This document shows positions 6,118-14,762 of a stretch of 15,808 bases of DNA, piece after piece. Under the pieces are notes generated by a model. That model ran no database searches. It saw only the letters and a list, made by a program, of their open reading frames with translations, and was not told the DNA's origin. A program made the position numbers and the translations under genes. Location: positions 1 to 15,808 of the forward strand of contig CAZBPC010000077.1 in NCBI GenBank assembly GCA_964493715.1. Direction: 5' to 3'. Each line of letters begins with the position of its first letter. Within the stretch, counting starts at the first letter, position 1. This DNA is from an uncultured archaeon (GTDB lineage Archaea > Asgardarchaeota > Lokiarchaeia > Sigyniarchaeales > SOKP01).

Positions 6118-7995
6118 TTAGAGGATATTTAGTTCTTTTAATTTTTCTTTTGTAGGTGCCCCTGTATCCCAATCCCAATCTCTTAATTCGTAATATTTCT
6201 TTAGGTTAGGTTCCAAATCAAGAGATACATCGACTGTTTTGCCAGAAGTCAGCACTTTTTTCATGTGGTCTGGTAATCTATCATCTTCCCTAGTTATTCC
6301 GAGTTTCACGTTAATTAATCGTTTGAGATTATTAATTCTCTCACCCACTTTCATTAGGGATTTTTTATTATAATCGAAACCAGTGGCAGCATTGATAAAT
6401 CCAATAATGTGATCAAAGCTAGGGTTCGCAAATCCACAATTTACGGCTGAATCATCAATAGCGCGTAGGTCTTGAAATGCCATAACACCTTTCTCCCTTC
6501 CCTTTATTGAATATCTATCCCCCGGTTTAATACGTAATTTTGGATACGCTACCAGGTTCAATTCTGTCGAAAACCAGTCACATTTTTCATGATTTGCACC
6601 CACGCAACAGGTTATGTAACTTAGCCCTTGACCAGCAAAGGCTCTGGGATCATGCATTGGAATCTCTAATCCTTTCACGTGAGCGGCTAATTCTGGATCA
6701 ACACCTAAATCTTTTGCCATGAATCGTACACCCTCTGCTAAAAGAGCTCCAATTCCATTTCTAGCAGAAATTTTATTGATGAGTTTCAAGATTAAATCAC
6801 CATTCCCCCACCTAATTTCATCCAAATTTATGGTTTCTAGCTTCGATTTAATCTCATCAATTGCAATGTTATTTTCAACTAAATAAATTAAGAAGGCTAT
6901 GCTTACACCGGTGGAAATAGTATCGATTCCATAGACATTACACATATGATGAGCTAATATCACGCTCTTTGAATCAAAGACTCCACATAGTGGTCCAAAT
7001 GCACCTACAGATTCATATTCTGGTCCATCGACACGGATTTCTTTTTCATTTTCTAAAATGATGGTTGTTTTTCCACACCTCATCGTACATCCTGCACAAC
7101 CATAGTCTAAGACGGGATATTCTTCTTTGAGAGTTTTTCCAGAAAGTTTCTCAGCAAGAAATTCAGTTTCAGTATAATAATACCCTGATAGATCTCCAAG
7201 AGCCATTCCAATGTCTAGATAACAATTAGTGCCATATAATGTAAACAACATTGGTACCATTTGTTTCAACAATACAGTTTTTTTCAAGTCTTCTGCTTGT
7301 TTCAAAAACTCTTTGCCAATAGCTGGATCAGCAATTTTAACAGTACTTGTCCCATGGATTGCCAAGGCTTTTAACTTCTTTGATCCCATGAGTGTTCCCA
7401 TACCACATCTCCCAATTGCTCTTCCTTCATCATTGATTATGCAACCGTATTTGACAAGGTTTTCTCCTCCAACTCCGATGGTAGCTACTCGTAAGTTATT
7501 ATTTTTTAATTCTCTCTTAATAATTTTCTGCGTTTCGTAAGTATCTTTACTCCATATGTTATTAGCATCCTTGAATTCAATAGATTGATCATGAATATAA
7601 ATGTATATAGGACTTTTTGATTTTCCTGTAATCACAATAGCATCAAATCCACTATTTCGTAATGAAATGCAGAAAGTTCCTCCCGAACTCCCTTCCCCCC
7701 AGATGCCTGTATGCGGAGATATTCCCGAGACCGTATATCGACCTGAAGAAGGTCTTAGAGTGCCAGTAACTGGTCCAGTAGCAAAAATAAGAGGATTGAT
7801 TCCAGACATTGGATCTTTCTTCAACGTTTCATAATCATCATCTGATAATCTATCATATATTAATTTAGCACTAAGTCCCGTCCCTCCAAGATAATCCTTG
7901 GCGATCTGAGGATCTAATTCTTTAATTTTAACTTTCTGATTATCTAAATCAATAAATGCAACTTTACCATTATAACCAATTAGTTTTTCGCTCAT
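6118..7995 (-). CDS. aor: Tungsten-dependent aldehyde:ferredoxin oxidoreductase family protein
   Basis: 625 aa. Motifs YLGGTGL, SPHTG, GRCGMGTLMGSKKLKA, Fe-S CAGCTMRC, GPEYE, GIDTISTG, HVKGLEIPMHDPR, EDDRLP and YYELRDWD. Confidence 0.95.
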   Translation of the reverse strand: MSEKLIGYNGKVAFIDLDNQKVKIKELDPQIAKDYLGGTGLSAKLIYDRLSDDDYETLKKDPMSGINPLIFATGPVTGTLRPSSGRYTVSGISPHTGIWGEGSSGGTFCISLRNSGFDAIVITGKSKSPIYIYIHDQSIEFKDANNIWSKDTYETQKIIKRELKNNNLRVATIGVGGENLVKYGCIINDEGRAIGRCGMGTLMGSKKLKALAIHGTSTVKIADPAIGKEFLKQAEDLKKTVLLKQMVPMLFTLYGTNCYLDIGMALGDLSGYYYTETEFLAEKLSGKTLKEEYPVLDYGCAGCTMRCGKTTIILENEKEIRVDGPEYESVGAFGPLCGVFDSKSVILAHHMCNVYGIDTISTGVSIAFLIYLVENNIAIDEIKSKLETINLDEIRWGNGDLILKLINKISARNGIGALLAEGVRFMAKDLGVDPELAAHVKGLEIPMHDPRAFAGQGLSYITCCVGANHEKCDWFSTELNLVAYPKLRIKPGDRYSIKGREKGVMAFQDLRAIDDSAVNCGFANPSFDHIIGFINAATGFDYNKKSLMKVGERINNLKRLINVKLGITREDDRLPDHMKKVLTSGKTVDVSLDLEPNLKKYYELRDWDWDTGAPTKEKLKELNIL

Positions 7996-8007
7996 AATTT
8001 AACACCA

Positions 8008-9303
8008 TTAAAAATCTATAGCTTTTCCCTCCCAAGCATATTCAAATATTTTCTTATATAAATCACTATTGATTGGTCGGTATGATGTAAGGCTAACAGC
8101 ATCATCTTCAGCATAAGAAACCATTAAATCTAATTTTGACATATAATCTACTTTTGTTATTTCTGGTTTTCTTAATTCCCTAACACTCGTGGGAGCGTCT
8201 ATTGAATGTATAAAATCTTTCAATTTATCCATAAACTCCTTGAAAAGGTCTTCTCGAGACTTATCCTCAACAGAAATATTAAAAATTGGACATAAATCTT
8301 GCCATCTATCTGTTACTTTTGCTTGAAATTCAATGGAATAGGGTAAATACAATCCCACAGCAATTCCATGGTGAATTCCGAAAATTTTACCTGCAGAATG
8401 ACCTAACGAATGATCAATTCCGGGAACAGTGTTACCAAAACCAATTCCAGCCATCAGTGCGGCCATGTGCATATGATCTCTCGCTTCTATATCTTTTGCT
8501 CCATATGTATAAGCTCGAGGCAAAAATTTAACGATTTCTTTTATTGCTGTGAAGTTTACAGAATCTAAATAAGGAGAACCCCAATTAGATACGTAACTAC
8601 CCATTGCATGAGAGAGTGCATCTAATCCAGTTCCAGCGGTCAACATCGGAGGCATATCTTTTACAAAGTCAGTATCTAATATCGTAATATCAGCGGGAAA
8701 TTCATCGCTCATCACTTCTAATTTTTTAGGGGGATCTCTATCCATATCCGTTAGTACTGCTGCGGAAGATACTTCAGATCCAGTTCCTGATGTAGTAGGG
8801 ATAGCTATGAAAAATCGAAATTTCCTTCTTAATCCTAATGATCCAAAATAAGGAAGAATGTTGAATATGTTTATATCTGGATTCTCATACTTAACTATGA
8901 CCATTTTAGCGGTATCCATTACGCTTCCTCCACCAAGTGCAATTATTACTTGCGGTTTAAATTCTTCACAAATTTGGGCTCCAACATCTATTGTTGGAAG
9001 AGGTACTTCTGGTTCCGCTCCAGACCATATTTTATACTCCATTTCAATGAGATCAAGCATGTTTTCAGTAATTTTTTTAGCATATTTTTGAGTAAAGGAA
9101 TCAGTAATGATTAAGGCTCTTCGATCTTCCTTATCAAACATCGCTTTTAAGTAATTGCTAACTTGAAACAGTCCTACTTTACCCTTGTAAATGCGTGAGG
9201 AAAAGTAATTGGACATTACGCCCCGTAACGCTTTTCCGCCCATTAATGCCATCATATCTTTGACTGTTTGAGATTCATACCAAGCCGGTTGTTCTTTCGT
9301 CAT
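8008..9303 (-). CDS. Iron-containing (group III) alcohol dehydrogenase
   Basis: GGGSVMDTAK, PTTSGTGSEV, and metal ligands in DALSHA, IDHSLGH and HHGIA. It lies 12 nt upstream of aor on the same strand, a likely operon. Confidence 0.93.
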   Translation of the reverse strand: MTKEQPAWYESQTVKDMMALMGGKALRGVMSNYFSSRIYKGKVGLFQVSNYLKAMFDKEDRRALIITDSFTQKYAKKITENMLDLIEMEYKIWSGAEPEVPLPTIDVGAQICEEFKPQVIIALGGGSVMDTAKMVIVKYENPDINIFNILPYFGSLGLRRKFRFFIAIPTTSGTGSEVSSAAVLTDMDRDPPKKLEVMSDEFPADITILDTDFVKDMPPMLTAGTGLDALSHAMGSYVSNWGSPYLDSVNFTAIKEIVKFLPRAYTYGAKDIEARDHMHMAALMAGIGFGNTVPGIDHSLGHSAGKIFGIHHGIAVGLYLPYSIEFQAKVTDRWQDLCPIFNISVEDKSREDLFKEFMDKLKDFIHSIDAPTSVRELRKPEITKVDYMSKLDLMVSYAEDDAVSLTSYRPINSDLYKKIFEYAWEGKAIDF

Positions 9304-9878: not shown

Positions 9879-10709
9879 ATGGATATTAAAACAATTAGTA
9901 TTATTGGAACAGGTTTTATGGGGGACCAAATTGCTTCTAGGGCTATATTGTATGATTATAGATTAAAATTATATGATATTAGCGAAGAGAGCTTGAATGT
10001 AATTAGAAAATCTCTTACTGGCTTTTTAAGAAGAAGGCGAATGAAAGAAAAAGTAGAGTGGATTAGTTATCATAATGATCTTGCTAAAGCTGTAAATGAT
10101 GCGGATTTGATTATTGAAACAATACCAGAGAATTTAGAGTTAAAAAGGGAGATTTTTTCAAAAATCGATGAATTTGCTCCTCCAAATGCCATAATTGCTA
10201 CAAATAGCTCCTCGATCCCAGTTTCAAAGATTGAAGAGGCAGTAAAAAGAAAAGGGCAAGTTTTAAATATCCATTTCTATGCTCCAATAATTACAATGCC
10301 AATGGTTGATATAATGAGAGGTACCCAAACTACTGATATCGTTTTTGAAACTGGAAGAAAGTGGATAGAGAGTCTTGAATGTACCCCGTTAGTGGTTAAG
10401 AAAGAGTGTTTGGGGTTTGTTTTTAACCGTGTATGGCATGCGGTAAAGAAGGAATGTTTAAAGATTTGGGCGGGAGGATATGCCGATTTCGAGACAGTAG
10501 ATACTGCTTGGCAGATTTTTACAGGAATGGGTTTGGGACCATTCCGTTTAATGGATGGTGTTGGCTTGGATACGATATTAAACGTTGAGATGACATATTT
10601 TAATGAAAGCGGGAATTTAGATGATAAACCTCCAAAAGAGTTAAAAGAAATGGTAGATAAAGGTTTACTTGGCAGAAAATCTGGTAAAGGATTTTATTCT
10701 TGGGAATAA
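9879..10709 (+). CDS. 3-hydroxyacyl-CoA / 3-hydroxybutyryl-CoA dehydrogenase
   Basis: IIGTGFMGDQIA Rossmann motif, DLIIETIPENLELKREIF, ATNSSS, catalytic HFYAP, GFVFNR, GPFRLMDGVGLD and LGRKSGKGFY. Confidence 0.93.
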   Translation: MDIKTISIIGTGFMGDQIASRAILYDYRLKLYDISEESLNVIRKSLTGFLRRRRMKEKVEWISYHNDLAKAVNDADLIIETIPENLELKREIFSKIDEFAPPNAIIATNSSSIPVSKIEEAVKRKGQVLNIHFYAPIITMPMVDIMRGTQTTDIVFETGRKWIESLECTPLVVKKECLGFVFNRVWHAVKKECLKIWAGGYADFETVDTAWQIFTGMGLGPFRLMDGVGLDTILNVEMTYFNESGNLDDKPPKELKEMVDKGLLGRKSGKGFYSWE

Positions 10710-10720
10710 TCAGGTGCCAT

Positions 10721-10727
10721 AAAAAAA
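10721..10727 (-). terminator. Oligo-U (T7) terminator downstream of the SECIS
   Basis: The minus strand reads ...GGGATCTATATCTA-TTTTTTT directly after the SECIS stem-loop, which would place the SECIS inside the 3'UTR. Confidence 0.55.
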
Positions 10728-10736
10728 TAGATATAG

Positions 10737-10803
10737 ATCCCTAACCATTGCAGGTTGTCCCCAGATATCTATCGTTTATACATCCAGATCATCCATGCGG
10801 GAT
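10737..10803 (-). promoter_or_regulatory. Eukaryote-type SECIS element in the 3'UTR of the Prx-like selenoprotein gene
   Basis: Minus strand: ATCCC GCATGG ATGAT CTGGATGTAT AAACGAT AGATATCTGG GGAC AA CCTGC AATGGTTA GGGAT. The AUGAU core (10792-10788) opposes GGAC (10760-10757), giving tandem G.A/A.G pairs. Helix II is about 10 bp, the apical loop starts with AAA (10777-10775), and lower stems are GCA-U-GG/CC-UGC and AUCCC/GGGAU. GC is 30/67 nt, far above the other intergenic spacers here. Folded by hand. Confidence 0.8.
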
Positions 10804-11316
10804 TTAAAGTTTTGTATTAATTACTTCCATCATCATTTCAATTGAGGGTCTGTCAGTTTTATCTTTTCCAATATATGTCCAGACGATTTTTCCTTCCTTA
10901 TTTATGAGAAACTTGCTCGGCACTGCTTGTTTTGCATATAGTGAGCCCCCACCTCCGGGAGCAAACCAATAAACATCATAATCTCTTGCAATTTTCGCAC
11001 CGCGGTCAGCTATCATATCTATGGAAAATTCATTTTCTTCCTTGAATTTTTGTAATAACCTCACGCTATCAGCAGCGATTGATATAACTTTAATGTTTTT
11101 GTTTTCAAAATGGAATTTATTTTCTGTTAATAACGCTAAATGTTTTTTGCAATGACTTCACCAATTTCCTCTGAAAAAATCGATAAGAACTCCATTAAAG
11201 ATCTTTAAAAGTTGAGTTAGAATGATGTTATTGCCATAGATGTCTTGCGTGTCGAATAATGGTGCGTTTGAACCAACTGGCAGACCTTTCGGTCTCGGCG
11301 GTTCTTCATCAGCCAT
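10804..11316 (-). CDS. Peroxiredoxin-like (AhpC/TSA, thioredoxin-fold) selenoprotein, 170 aa, UxxC motif (Sec53, Cys56)
   Basis: ATG at 11316 gives MADEEPPRPKGLPVGSNAPLFDTQDIYGNNIILTQLLKIFNGVLIDFFRGNW-U-SHCKKHLALLTENKFHFENKNIKVISIAADSVRLLQKF...KFLINKEGKIVWTYIGKDKTDRPSIE...KL*. The single in-frame TGA (11160-11158) sits at the first Cys of the family motif FxRGxWCxxC. AhpC/TSA-like sequence occurs on both sides of the TGA. Confidence 0.9.
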
Positions 11317-13910: not shown

Positions 13911-14762
13911 CTAATTTCTATGAGTTTTTTCAATCTTAATTAGTAAATTGCCGATTAGATTATGACTGAAAACAAATAAGATATCTATGAGTTTCCACCA
14001 TCTAGGAACGTAAATCTCTTTCTTATTCTTCATTGAAGCATTTAATATTCTTTTAGCAATGTCGTTAGCTTCTAGAAGTTTGAATAAAAACCCCTGACTT
14101 TCATAATTTTCAATCCATTCAATAGTCTCAGGCGTGTTATAGAAACCTGTTTTTGCCGGGGCTGAAATGATTGTTATAACATTTATCATCTCCTCCATCA
14201 TTTTGTATTCCAACCGTATGGAATCTGCCATTGCAATAATTGCACTCTTGCTCATTGCATATGCCGCCATGTTTGGAACCCCTGTTCTTCCAGCTGCACT
14301 TGATGTAAATATAAGCTGTCCGACTTTTTTGTTAACAGTTTTTCTGATTTGAGTAGGTCTCCCAATAAATGGTAATGCTGCTTTTAAAACTAACCACATT
14401 CCATCCGTGTTGATCGCCATTACTTTTCTGTATTCTTCATAAGTTCCCTCATTTGTAATGGAACATTTACTACCTACCCCGGCGTTATTGAATAAAATAT
14501 CAATGTATTGCTCTTTTTGCCCTATTTTATTTATAGCATTCTTAATTTGGTCTTGATTTAAAACATCCATTTCATAAAATTCTACTAATTCCGCGCCTAA
14601 ATCCAGGAGTTCTTGTTTTAATGGATCAATCTTGGGATTAGGCAGATCTAAAATATACATCCTCATACCAAGAGGGGCAAATTTTCGGCATGCTGCACTA
14701 CCGATATCCCCACCACCACCGGTAATTACAAATACTTTACTTTTGTACCATTTCTTTTTCAT
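13911..14762 (-). CDS. Classical SDR oxidoreductase
   Basis: VITGGGGDIG, IDILFNNAG, TSSAAG and YAMSK. It lies 8 nt upstream of the MFS gene on the same strand. Confidence 0.92.
   Translation of the reverse strand: MKKKWYKSKVFVITGGGGDIGSAACRKFAPLGMRMYILDLPNPKIDPLKQELLDLGAELVEFYEMDVLNQDQIKNAINKIGQKEQYIDILFNNAGVGSKCSITNEGTYEEYRKVMAINTDGMWLVLKAALPFIGRPTQIRKTVNKKVGQLIFTSSAAGRTGVPNMAAYAMSKSAIIAMADSIRLEYKMMEEMINVITIISAPAKTGFYNTPETIEWIENYESQGFLFKLLEANDIAKRILNASMKNKKEIYVPRWWKLIDILFVFSHNLIGNLLIKIEKTHRN

What the first reader, a model, noticed from the sequence alone, without database searches (positions are those of the whole stretch)
10737..10803. Eukaryote-type SECIS (AUGA_AAA_GA kink-turn stem-loop) in a prokaryotic 3'UTR
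Seen: immediately after the TAA of the UGA-containing gene is a 67-nt element of 45% GC. It folds by hand into a lower stem, an AUGAU/GGAC non-Watson-Crick core, a ~10-bp helix (CUGGAUGUAU/AGAUAUCUGG, with several G.U pairs and one A.G mismatch) and an apical loop starting AAA, followed by a U7 tract. The core is about 365 nt downstream of the UGA. Established: bacterial SECIS lie directly after the UGA inside the CDS, and methanogen SECIS use a different GAA/A motif. The RUGA/AAR/GA architecture is eukaryotic and has been reported for Lokiarchaeota. Inference: UGA plus 3'UTR SECIS form a complete eukaryote-like recoding cassette, which also points to an Asgard origin for the contig.
Basis: partly seen in the sequence, partly recalled or inferred. 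Interest (0 to 1): 0.88.

Follow-up and report, generated by a model that had tools for sequence, protein, structure and literature searches.

The report
Lokiarchaeal SECIS after a peroxiredoxin-like selenoprotein gene
The hairpin is a genuine selenocysteine-insertion signal of the eukaryote-like type already described for Lokiarchaeota (Asgard archaea), sitting just after a peroxiredoxin-like gene whose in-frame UGA encodes selenocysteine, so it is real but not new.

Summary
The element is real. It lies on the minus strand (10803..10737), 11 nt after the TAA of a 170-aa AhpC/TSA-redoxin gene with one in-frame TGA (UxxC redox box). It reads AUGA, a 9-bp stem, an 11-nt A-rich loop ending AG, then GAC. 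This is the 'lokiSECIS' of Mariotti et al. 2016, described there for this same Prx-like gene family.

Main evidence:
- A covariance model built only from orthologous elements of other genomes finds it at 47.6 bits (E 2e-10).
- The stem covaries: 8 of 9 pairs change on both sides.
- The spacing from the Sec codon is fixed at 367-372 nt.
- The genome holds tRNA-Sec, SepSecS, two Sec-type selD genes, and EFsec-like and PSTK-like genes that score below the curated cut-offs.
- It holds about ten such elements, nine directly behind genes with in-frame stop codons (TGA confirmed in eight).
- TGA-free MvhD paralogues lack the element (0 of 7, against 4 of 4 with in-frame stops).
- Close relatives are Promethearchaeota (= Lokiarchaeota) MAGs.

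Novelty is low.

Two possibly new points:
- A conserved small hairpin directly 3' of the core makes a three-way junction.
- Elsewhere in the genome, two SECIS-linked ORF families have no Pfam match; one carries a C-U-U motif.

The parts
10804..11316 (-). prxL: 170-aa peroxiredoxin-like (AhpC/TSA, Redoxin) selenoprotein gene with redox box W-U-S-H-C. The only Cys in the protein is the one in the box.
   Evidence: ORF under TGA=U. Pfam AhpC-TSA 9.9e-23 and Redoxin 6e-16. U aligns with the first Cys of the ResA CxxC box, 4nmu_A. Orthologues keep the TGA.
11158..11160 (-). In-frame UGA, codon 53, read as selenocysteine.
   Evidence: Unchanged in a DNA contig of another sample, run X5, record 6, which spans 10500-11283 with one difference at 10797. 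TGA is otherwise an ordinary stop: it closes 256 of 1529 long open frames in the genome, and 0 of the other 12 window ORFs contain it in frame.
10804..10806 (-). UAA stop codon of prxL, 11 nt before AUGA.
10799..10803 (-). Helix I, 5' strand (AUCCC).
   Evidence: Pairs with GGGAU at 10741..10737. In the family alignments helix I is 68-76% paired, and 7 of 7 pairs change on both sides.
10794..10794 (-). Invariant G two nt before AUGA. It pairs with the C of GAC and would be the closing pair of the kink-turn C stem.
   Evidence: G-C in 42 of 42 rows and 73 of 73. One element of another gene (contig C59) has U...A at the two positions instead.
10789..10792 (-). AUGA, the 5' half of the SECIS core (sheared G.A quartet).
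   Evidence: Invariant in 42 of 42 orthologous elements. Defining feature of the lokiSECIS (PMC4989117, section 11).
10780..10788 (-). Helix II, 5' strand (UCUGGAUGU).
   Evidence: 9 of 9 pairs with 10768..10760. 8 of 9 pairs change on both sides. The whole tested structure (10 pairs) is 91.4% paired against 27-55% with partners slid; helix II alone is 90.5%. RNAalifold finds the stem unaided.
10769..10779 (-). 11-nt apical loop, AUAAACGAUAG: A-rich start (4 of the first 5), ending AG.
   Evidence: Loop length, A-richness and the terminal G are lokiSECIS features (PMC4989117, section 11).
10760..10768 (-). Helix II, 3' strand (AUAUCUGGG).
10757..10759 (-). GAC: GA is the 3' half of the core; C pairs with G10794.
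   Evidence: Invariant in 42 of 42..
10743..10756 (-). Small hairpin directly 3' of the core (AACC-UGCAAU-GGUU). With helices I and II it forms a three-way junction.
   Evidence: All 10 elements of this genome have a hairpin here (MFE -2.7 to -7.2, mean -4.67), against a mean of -0.74 for 4000 random segments that follow GAC; 0 of 20000 resamples and 0 of 300 shuffles reach the observed mean. Paired in 84-85% of cells.
10737..10741 (-). Helix I, 3' strand (GGGAU).
10721..10727 (-). U7 tract 9 nt after the element. Probably the archaeal oligo-T termination signal (inferred).
   Evidence: Sequence. T-rich runs follow the element in the orthologues. No bacterial-type terminator hairpin was found, 0 sites.

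Best explanation
This is the SECIS element of a Lokiarchaeia-type (Asgard) selenoprotein mRNA.

The prxL transcript carries, between its UAA stop and an oligo-U tract, a kink-turn RNA. Its parts are a G-C closing pair, a 3-nt bulge (N-A-U), tandem sheared G.A/A.G pairs from AUGA and GA, a 9-bp helix and an 11-nt A-rich loop.

While the ribosome translates the mRNA, this 3'UTR structure recruits the Sec-specific elongation factor (EFsec) loaded with Sec-tRNA(Sec, anticodon UCA). Recruitment is either direct or through a kink-turn-binding protein. The UGA 368 nt upstream (codon 53) is then read as selenocysteine instead of stop. The product is a thioredoxin-fold UxxC thiol/selenol oxidoreductase.

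Shown here:
- the anatomy of the element;
- its conservation and covariation;
- its exclusive association with genes that have in-frame stop codons (TGA where checked);
- the Sec machinery genes in the genome.

Inferred:
- the kink-turn geometry;
- the binding partner;
- the recoding itself. No lokiarchaeal SECIS has been tested successfully in vivo.
For: (1) Every sequence feature of the lokiSECIS is met: AUGA, 9 bp, an 11-nt loop with an A-rich start and terminal AG, GA, and closeness to the stop (compare PMC4989117, section 11).

(2) Model R1 was built from 41 PrxL elements of other genomes, with the window's own left out. It finds window 10730-10805(-) at 47.6 bits, E 2.3e-10 per genome.

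(3) Covariation on a sequence-only alignment of 42 elements: the 10 tested pairs are 91.4% paired against 27-55% with partners slid, and 8 of 9 helix II pairs change on both sides. RNAalifold recovers the stem independently.

(4) The distance from the Sec codon to AUGA is 367-372 nt in all 42 non-redundant close orthologues that show the pattern.

(5) Of the 10 pattern hits in the genome, 9 lie within 1-22 nt after (or overlapping) the end of a gene with in-frame stop codons. These are four MvhD/VhuD-like genes (one behind an HdrA with 2 U), one VhuU-like gene, two 'UU' proteins, a 64-aa peptide and this prxL. TGA was confirmed for eight; for the C59 copy only the number of stops was counted. 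The tenth hit lies inside a coding region and is not hit by R1.

(6) In-genome control: 4 of 4 MvhD paralogues with in-frame stops have the element 4-40 nt downstream, while 0 of 7 TGA-free paralogues have anything SECIS-like within -30..+400 nt. Likewise 0 of 20 TGA-free Prx homologues of other Asgard genomes have it within 200 nt.

(7) Sec machinery in the genome:
- tRNA-Sec, 59 bits (cut-off 47), anticodon UCA;
- SepSecS, 476 bits, next to the tRNA gene;
- an EFsec-like gene about 3 kb away on the other strand;
- two selD genes with one TGA each;
- a PSTK-like gene.

(8) TGA is not reassigned genome-wide.

(9) The TGA and the element are unchanged, apart from one linker base, in contigs from other samples.
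Against: - Folding energy is no better than that of shuffles (z -0.10). The thermodynamic optimum for this copy uses a different lower helix.
- No Rfam SECIS family matches, even at E <= 10. The same holds for five other loci with lokiSECIS elements and was also reported by Mariotti et al. (section 17).
- This copy is the weakest of the close PrxL orthologues: 47.6 bits against 56-91 among same-genus and sister-genus copies. It has four G.U pairs, and U at loop position 2.
- The EFsec-like and PSTK-like genes score below the curated bacterial and methanogen cut-offs (231 < 242 bits; 169 < 290 bits).
- There is no experimental evidence. Sec has been shown experimentally only in methanogens (PMC9622424, passage seen). 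A lokiarchaeal SECIS was reported as not functional in Methanococcus maripaludis (PMC11881835, Discussion passage seen; the construct is in a supplement I could not open).
- No true Cys-form orthologue was found, so the test 'absent where Cys replaces Sec' could be run only on paralogues.
Confidence: 0.9

Rival explanations
1. The hairpin is only a 3'-end structure between two convergent genes, prxL on the minus strand and a 3-hydroxyacyl-CoA dehydrogenase gene ending at 10709 on the plus strand. It would serve termination or stability and have nothing to do with Sec.
For: It sits in a 94-nt convergent intergenic spacer and is followed by U7. Its folding energy is unremarkable.
Against: A terminator need not keep AUGA, GAC, an 11-nt A-rich loop ending in G and a fixed 367-372-nt distance to the TGA across 42 orthologues. 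The same motif follows eight other genes of this genome with in-frame stop codons and none of 7 TGA-free MvhD paralogues. No terminator-like site was scored.
Confidence: 0.03
2. The TGA is a true stop. On this view the locus is a split or decaying gene (a 52-aa N-terminal piece and an 86-aa GTG-started ORF at 11064..10804) or an assembly error, and the hairpin is incidental.
For: Under table 11 only the 86-aa ORF is listed. Public gene calls truncate the family: 81 of the 120 database proteins listed are 93-139 aa and, in the 8 whose starts were printed, begin after the TGA.
Against: The TGA sits exactly at the first Cys position of the CxxC box. Both halves are conserved in one frame at 66-76% identity in dozens of genomes, always with the TGA. 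All 39 full-length database calls read W there, meaning TGA read through under another code. Independent contigs confirm the base calls. The Sec machinery is present.
Confidence: 0.02
3. The RNA is a kink-turn bound by L7Ae or L30e for another purpose, such as translational control or mRNA stability. Sec insertion would then depend on some other signal not yet recognised.
For: The core is a generic kink-turn consensus. The genome has two small L7Ae-domain ORFs and no SBP2-like protein. The lokiSECIS did not work in M. maripaludis (PMC11881835, passage seen).
Against: The element is found only behind genes with in-frame stop codons. No alternative structure follows the UGA. Failure in a methanogen is expected if recognition is lineage-specific.
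Confidence: 0.04

Closest known systems
lokiSECIS of PrxL genes (Mariotti et al. 2016, PMC4989117), called Asgard 'eSECIS-like type I' by Huang et al. 2024 (PMC11227280)
   Same: Same gene family (Prx-like, UxxC, no other Cys). Same position just after the stop. AUGA, a 9-bp stem, an 11-nt loop with an A-rich start and terminal AG, and GA. Sec machinery of archaeal type with EFsec close to tRNA-Sec. Detected by a model trained on other members.
   Different: Only details differ: the loop starts AUAAA rather than AAAAA, there are four G.U pairs, and the model score is the lowest among close orthologues. The small hairpin 3' of the core and the G-C closing pair are not mentioned in the main texts I read. 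They may be drawn in figures or supplements that I could not see.
Eukaryotic SECIS, type I (the Rfam eukaryotic SECIS model; its name is recalled and comes from no call)
   Same: 3'UTR location. It acts on a UGA hundreds of nt upstream. AUGA/GA non-Watson-Crick quartet. Unpaired A's in the apical loop.
   Different: No Rfam match at E <= 10. The published comparison says the helix II is shorter (PMC4989117, section 11). There is an extra hairpin in the 3' side of the internal loop. No SBP2-like protein was found, only two L7Ae-domain ORFs of about 126 aa.
Methanogen SECIS (eaSECIS, GAA_A bulge)
   Same: 3'UTR location in an archaeon. Kink-turn-like core.
   Different: There is no GAA trinucleotide anywhere in the 3'UTR (sequence) and no G/C clamp. 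A lokiarchaeal element is reported as non-functional in M. maripaludis (PMC11881835, passage seen).
Bacterial SECIS
   Same: It directs UGA recoding to Sec.
   Different: The bacterial element lies in the coding sequence right after the UGA. Here that stretch is unstructured.
k-junction, a kink-turn elaborated into a three-way junction (Lilley laboratory; recalled, not looked up)
   Same: Tandem G.A pairs, a 3-nt bulge, and a very short C stem from which two further helices leave (inferred).
   Different: No three-dimensional evidence. The resemblance is a lead from memory, not a test.

Membership tests
lokiSECIS / Asgard eSECIS-like type I | AUGA immediately 5' of the main stem | tested here: met
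   10792..10789.
lokiSECIS / Asgard eSECIS-like type I | 9-bp stem (Huang model: 7-15 bp with at most 2 mismatches) | tested here: met
   9 of 9 pairs, 4 of them G.U. Supported by covariation.
lokiSECIS / Asgard eSECIS-like type I | 11-nt apical loop whose first five nt are mostly A and whose last nt is G, usually preceded by A | tested here: met
   AUAAACGAUAG: 4 of the first 5 are A, and it ends AG.
lokiSECIS / Asgard eSECIS-like type I | GA (or AA) directly 3' of the stem | tested here: met
   GAC at 10759..10757.
lokiSECIS / Asgard eSECIS-like type I | Located close to the stop codon of a gene with an in-frame UGA | tested here: met
   11 nt after the UAA. The UGA is 368 nt upstream.
lokiSECIS / Asgard eSECIS-like type I | Recognised by a covariance model of other members | tested here: met
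   R1, built without this sequence: 47.6 bits, E 2.3e-10. This is my own model, not the published lokiSECISearch.
lokiSECIS / Asgard eSECIS-like type I | Host genome encodes the archaeal Sec pathway | tested here: met
   tRNA-Sec, SepSecS and selD (two copies, each with TGA) score above the cut-offs. The EFsec-like and PSTK-like genes score below them.
lokiSECIS / Asgard eSECIS-like type I | Actually directs Sec insertion | not testable with these tools
   No experiment exists for any member. The heterologous test in M. maripaludis was negative (PMC11881835, passage seen).
Eukaryotic SECIS (Rfam model) | Match to the family covariance model | tested here: not met
   No SECIS family at E <= 10 in the whole window or in a 141-nt slice.
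Eukaryotic SECIS (Rfam model) | SBP2-type binding protein in the genome | tested here: not met
   Only two L7Ae-domain ORFs, of 126 and 127 aa. This agrees with PMC4989117, sections 12 and 13.
Methanogen eaSECIS | GAA_A asymmetric bulge flanked by G-C pairs | tested here: not met
   No GAA in the 92-nt 3' region printed.
Bacterial SECIS | Hairpin within about 16-37 nt after the UGA | tested here: not met
   63 nt from the UGA fold at -0.6 kcal/mol; all 200 shuffles fold at least as well.
Prx-like (PrxL) selenoprotein | AhpC/TSA-redoxin fold with a UxxC (or UxxU) redox box in place of CxxC, and no other Cys | tested here: met
   Pfam. W-U-S-H-C aligns to the W-C-K-P-C of ResA. There is a single Cys in the translation.

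The most novel reading that the evidence does not exclude
The lokiarchaeal SECIS may not be a simple stem-loop. It may be a three-way junction built on a kink-turn ('k-junction'-like).

Proposed architecture:
- An invariant G-C pair closes a one-pair C stem.
- From it branch a conserved small hairpin (4-6 bp, often with a GCAA/GCGA/GUGA-containing loop) directly 3' of GA-C, and the closing helix I.

If this junction is needed for recognition, it would be a lineage-specific determinant absent from eukaryotic SECIS. It could bear on why a transplanted lokiarchaeal SECIS failed in M. maripaludis, depending on which part was transplanted (supplement not seen).

Neither the hairpin nor a junction is mentioned in the main texts read (PMC4989117 searched for 'hairpin', 'helix', 'lower stem' and 'three-way'; PMC11227280, sections 7 and 14). 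One full-text search for SECIS + 'three-way junction' + archaea gave 3 papers, none about Asgard SECIS by title. Figures and supplements may show it.
Probability: 0.4. Interest if true: 0.5.

Novelty: new member of a known kind. Interest (0 to 1): 0.3.

Why it matters
The finding itself is a confirmation. It shows that a eukaryote-like SECIS of the Asgard type can be recognised from raw sequence, and that this genome is a Sec-using lokiarchaeon.

Practical value:
- Annotation. Public gene calls for this family are wrong. Of the 120 database proteins listed, 81 are truncated (93-139 aa; the 8 whose starts were printed begin after the TGA) and 39 read W at the Sec position.
- A working tool. A covariance model of the element picks out the selenoprotein genes of the genome.

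That model led to two ORF families with conserved in-frame TGA and a SECIS but no Pfam match, which may be undescribed selenoproteins. It also led to the three-way-junction architecture. That architecture is directly testable by structure probing and bears on the open question of what recognises the SECIS in archaea that lack SBP2.

Tried and rejected
- Rfam scans of the window, of a 141-nt slice and of five other loci with lokiSECIS elements gave no SECIS family. I treat this as a limit of the library, because the published study also found that eukaryotic, archaeal and bacterial models do not hit these elements.

- Folding energy as a test: z -0.10. It is not informative for a motif whose core is non-Watson-Crick.

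- The RNAfold optimum for this copy pairs GCA.GG before AUGA with CC.UGC after GAC. On the family alignment this lower helix is only 57% paired, and two of its five pairs are unpaired in 31 and 34 of 42 rows. I rejected it in favour of the hairpin plus helix I.

- A 'Cys orthologue lacks the element' test could not be run. No Cys-form orthologue was found in 398 Asgard genomes or among the 120 database proteins listed. The 21 TGA-free matches that cover the site are at most 33% identical. I examined 20 of them: none has a CxxC box and none has the element.

- A fixed-register pair count on 26 of the 27 VhuD elements found (one near-duplicate left out) gave only 60.8% pairing for the small hairpin, because its loop length varies. 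Within PrxL alone the hairpin is mostly conserved sequence: only 1 of 5 pairs changes on both sides on the sequence-only alignment. The support for the hairpin therefore rests mainly on its presence with different sequences behind different genes and on an alignment fitted to the model.

- RNA evidence. One RNA-library run (X20, contigs) yielded a 178-nt contig over 11120-11296, 97% alike. It spans the TGA, and none of the five listed differences falls on the TGA. The run gave no cover over the stop codon or the element, so nothing can be said about the 3' end. The library may also contain DNA.

- The genome-wide model search scored only 150 of 3756 first-look candidates, so the list of elements may be incomplete. 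The selD loci gave no R1 hit; the literature describes a different (type II) element there.

- The order-level relatives (loci L105-L110) carry TGA in prxL but gave no R1 hit. One shows an AUGA with a longer stem. I did not pursue this.

Supplements of all papers were closed. They may hold the drawn lokiSECIS structures, the tested SLoki construct and the per-genome selenoprotein tables.
Full report
**What is there**

The window is one whole 15,808-base contig (C77) of a 3.68-Mb, 31%-GC genome in 160 contigs. On the minus strand an ORF runs from 11316 to 10804. Read with TGA as U it gives a 170-residue protein with a single in-frame TGA at codon 53 (11160..11158) in the motif W-U-S-H-C.
- Pfam places it in AhpC/TSA (E 9.9e-23) and Redoxin.
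- Against solved structures, the U aligns with the first Cys of the CxxC box of ResA (4nmu_A), and the following Cys aligns with the peroxidatic Cys of archaeal peroxiredoxins.
- The protein has no other Cys.

The gene ends with TAA at 10806..10804. A convergent 3-hydroxyacyl-CoA dehydrogenase gene ends at 10709 on the other strand.

**Anatomy**

Read 5' to 3' on the minus strand, the element is:
- AUCCC, helix I (10803..10799);
- a 4-nt linker (10798..10795);
- G10794;
- one further nucleotide (G10793);
- AUGA (10792..10789);
- UCUGGAUGU (10788..10780);
- the loop AUAAACGAUAG (10779..10769);
- AUAUCUGGG (10768..10760);
- GA-C (10759..10757);
- the small hairpin AACC-UGCAAU-GGUU (10756..10743);
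- one nucleotide (10742);
- GGGAU (10741..10737).

That register is peculiar to this copy. The family register is 9 bp plus 11 nt.

**Is it more than chance?**

By folding energy it is not: -17 kcal/mol for 91 nt, z -0.10.

By motif it is. The strict pattern is ATGA, N9, N11 (at least 3 A in the first five, last base G), N9, then GA or AA, with at least 8 of 9 pairs. It occurs 10 times in the genome, against 1-5 (mean 1.9) in ten first-order Markov genomes and 0-5 for eleven permuted cores.

Of these ten hits, nine lie 1-22 nt after, or overlapping, the end of a gene with in-frame stop codons. In-frame TGA was confirmed for eight of them; for the C59 copy only the number of stops in the alignment was counted:
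- three MvhD/VhuD-like genes (Pfam FlpD);
- a fourth MvhD-like copy (C59, 38.7% identical to the C7 copy by tblastn) behind an HdrA with two U;
- a VhuU-like gene whose stop is the UGA of the AUGA core itself;
- two paralogous proteins with a U-U dipeptide;
- a 64-residue membrane peptide;
- this prxL.

The tenth hit lies inside a coding region, has no downstream hairpin and is not recognised by the covariance model.

**Comparative evidence**

A six-frame search of 398 genomes of the phylum found the protein in 111 of them, 85 of 132 in the same family.
- Every listed match that covers the Sec site and is at least 34% identical has one to three in-frame TGAs.
- The 21 TGA-free matches that cover the site are at most 33% identical. 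The 20 I fetched have no CxxC box and no SECIS-like structure within 200 nt downstream (0 of 20).

In 70 loci from two sources, 42 non-redundant elements fit the pattern, all with the Sec codon 367-372 nt before AUGA. Four loci that failed the simple pattern (L031, L084, L085, L087) were later found by the model at 45-76 bits.

On a MAFFT alignment of the 42 elements:
- AUGA, GAC and several loop positions are invariant.
- The 10 tested pairs (helix II plus the G-C pair) are 91.4% paired, against 27-55% when partners are slid.
- 8 of 9 helix II pairs change on both sides.
- The first stem pair is non-canonical in 19 of 42 rows, as expected for the fourth pair of a SECIS quartet.
- G(-2)-C is 42 of 42.

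RNAalifold recovers an 8-bp stem with the 11-nt loop without guidance.

A covariance model (R1) built from 41 elements of other genomes, leaving out the window's own, finds window 10730-10805(-) at 47.6 bits, E 2.3e-10. It also finds the elements behind other selenoprotein genes. This copy is the lowest-scoring of the close PrxL orthologues.

**In-genome association control**

tblastn with one MvhD/VhuD-like protein found 11 paralogues in the genome.
- The 4 with in-frame stops all have the 9-bp/11-nt element 4-40 nt after the match.
- None of the 7 without in-frame stops has anything SECIS-like between -30 and +400 nt.

**Machinery and genetic code**

The genome holds:
- a tRNA-Sec, 59 bits against a cut-off of 47, anticodon UCA;
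- SepSecS right beside it, 476 bits;
- an EFsec/SelB-like gene about 3 kb away on the opposite strand, 231 bits, just under the bacterial cut-off;
- two selD genes, each with one TGA;
- a PSTK-like gene, 169 bits, below the cut-off.

TGA closes 256 of 1529 long open frames, and none of the other 12 window ORFs has it in frame, so TGA is not generally reassigned. Only two small L7Ae-domain ORFs exist and no SBP2-like protein. This agrees with the literature.

**Origin**

Of 40 related loci in named public genomes:
- 31 are labelled Promethearchaeota or Promethearchaeia;
- 6 carry other Asgard phylum labels;
- 2 are labelled 'uncultured archaeon';
- 1 is labelled as a bacterium.

Several of these loci are identical to loci of same-genus genomes. 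The taxonomy tool resolves 'Candidatus Lokiarchaeota' to Promethearchaeota and 'Asgard group' to Promethearchaeati.

DNA contigs from other samples hold the locus. One difference (10797) falls in the linker of the element, and neither the TGA nor the conserved core differs.

**Comparison with what is known**

Mariotti et al. 2016 (PMC4989117; sections 8, 11, 13 and 17 read) described five selenoprotein families in Lokiarchaeota, including Prx-like proteins with UxxC or UxxU and no other Cys. They also described a 'lokiSECIS' just after the stop codon. Its features are AUGA, a 9-bp stem, an 11-nt loop with an A-rich start and an ultraconserved final G mostly preceded by A, then GA. They note:
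- that eukaryotic, archaeal and bacterial models do not detect it;
- that one VhuU gene uses the core UGA as its stop;
- that HdrA-VhuD pairs share one element;
- that SBP2 is absent.

I saw all of these again in this genome.

Huang et al. 2024 (PMC11227280; sections 7, 13 and 14 read) found eSECIS-like structures in 85% of 1439 Asgard selenoprotein genes. Type I was the main form for prxL.

The window element meets every sequence-level criterion of this family. It fails the criteria of the Rfam eukaryotic model, of the methanogen GAA_A element (no GAA in the 3'UTR) and of the bacterial element.

Function remains unproven for the whole class. Sec is shown experimentally only in methanogens (PMC9622424, passage seen). 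A lokiarchaeal SECIS did not work in M. maripaludis (PMC11881835, passage seen; the construct is in a closed supplement).

**Mechanism**

The most likely mechanism (confidence about 0.9 that it is a functional SECIS) runs as follows. The 3'UTR kink-turn recruits EFsec carrying Sec-tRNA(Sec) to the translating ribosome, so that UGA-53 is decoded as Sec.

Shown here: the anatomy, the covariation, the association with in-frame stop codons, and the machinery. Inferred: the kink-turn fold, the partner (EFsec itself, L7Ae, L30e or an unknown protein), termination at the U7 tract, and the recoding itself.

**A possibly new structural detail**

Directly after GA-C, every one of the 10 elements of this genome has a small hairpin of different sequence. 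The MFE of the 22 nt there is -2.7 to -7.2, mean -4.67. For 4000 random segments that follow GAC the mean is -0.74, and only 14% reach -2. None of 20000 resamples and none of 300 shuffles reach the observed mean. The hairpin is followed by the 3' strand of helix I.
- On the model-fitted alignment of 74 elements, helix I is 76% paired (7 of 7 pairs change on both sides) and the hairpin 85.5% (4 of 5), against 29-48% for slid partners. That alignment leans towards the structure.
- On the sequence-only alignment, the hairpin is 84% paired but only 1 of 5 pairs changes on both sides.
- All 27 VhuD elements from other genomes have a predicted hairpin at the same place, although a fixed-register count fails.
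- The competing lower helix of the RNAfold optimum is poorly supported (57% paired).

Together with the invariant G-C pair (U...A at the two positions in one element), this suggests a kink-turn embedded in a three-way junction. The main texts I read do not mention it. One literature search found nothing relevant by title. Figures and supplements were not visible.

**Verdict**

The kind is already known, so interest is low to moderate.

Noticed in passing
G000:C48:21729-22196(+) (locus L178/L143) and paralogue G000:C4:10816-11232(-) (L141): A protein family of about 155 aa with no Pfam match and a conserved ...PDVGC-U-U-EKV... motif, that is two adjacent in-frame TGAs. It was found in 113 of 129 genomes of the same taxonomic family, and nearly every full-length copy has 2-3 TGAs. 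Model R1 hits a SECIS right after the gene in 18 of 20 loci, 19 matches in all. It is not among the five families of PMC4989117 or the seven of PMC11227280 (sections read). It is a candidate for an undescribed selenoprotein family.
   Followed up: partly
G000:C14:11102-11293(+) (locus L137/L198): A 64-aa ORF with one hydrophobic segment and the motif DDGGG-U-GC. A lokiSECIS lies 6 nt after its stop (39.8 bits with R1). It has no Pfam match. Matches occur in 15 of 129 family genomes, all 15 with exactly one TGA, but most are weak. It may be a small selenopeptide.
   Followed up: partly
G000:C111:7961-8039(+) (locus L146 2462-2540): The best-scoring PrxL-type SECIS of the genome (57 bits) has no selenoprotein gene in front of it. 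Upstream is only a 37-aa CxxC...CxxC ORF whose penultimate codon is TGA, about 24 nt away. It may be an orphan element left by gene loss, or it may serve a very small gene.
   Followed up: partly
G000:C12:37685-37719(+) (locus L136): The VhuU-like gene ends with the UGA that is part of the AUGA core of its own SECIS. The same arrangement was reported for VhuU.1 in PMC4989117 (Discussion).
   Followed up: no
G000:C59:3615-3649(-) with genes upstream (locus L144): An HdrA gene with two in-frame TGAs, then a VhuD-like gene with two in-frame stops, then a single SECIS whose core is closed by U...A instead of G...C (GA-A instead of GA-C).
   Followed up: partly
Loci L105-L110 (order-level relatives, handles G141, G143, G138, G131, G144): prxL homologues with 1-2 TGAs but no match to model R1. 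One (L108) shows AUGA followed by a stem of about 12 bp and an A-rich loop. SECIS geometry seems to differ between lokiarchaeal families.
   Followed up: no
Public protein database hits to window 10807-11316(-): Of the 120 homologues listed, 81 are truncated (93-139 aa; the 8 whose starts were printed begin after the TGA, some named 'redoxin domain-containing protein, partial'). The 39 full-length ones have W at the Sec position: 29 WxxC and 10 WxxW. The family is systematically mis-annotated.
   Followed up: yes
G000:C18:41768-44417(+) (loci L014, L015, L147): Two selD genes in tandem, each with one in-frame TGA. R1 finds no element there, which fits the different type II SECIS reported for selD/SPS.
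   Followed up: no
window 6118-9303(-) and 13911-14762(-): Neighbouring genes encode aldehyde:ferredoxin oxidoreductase, an Fe-type alcohol dehydrogenase, a short-chain dehydrogenase and an MFS transporter. This is an ordinary fermentative context with no other in-frame TGA.
   Followed up: no
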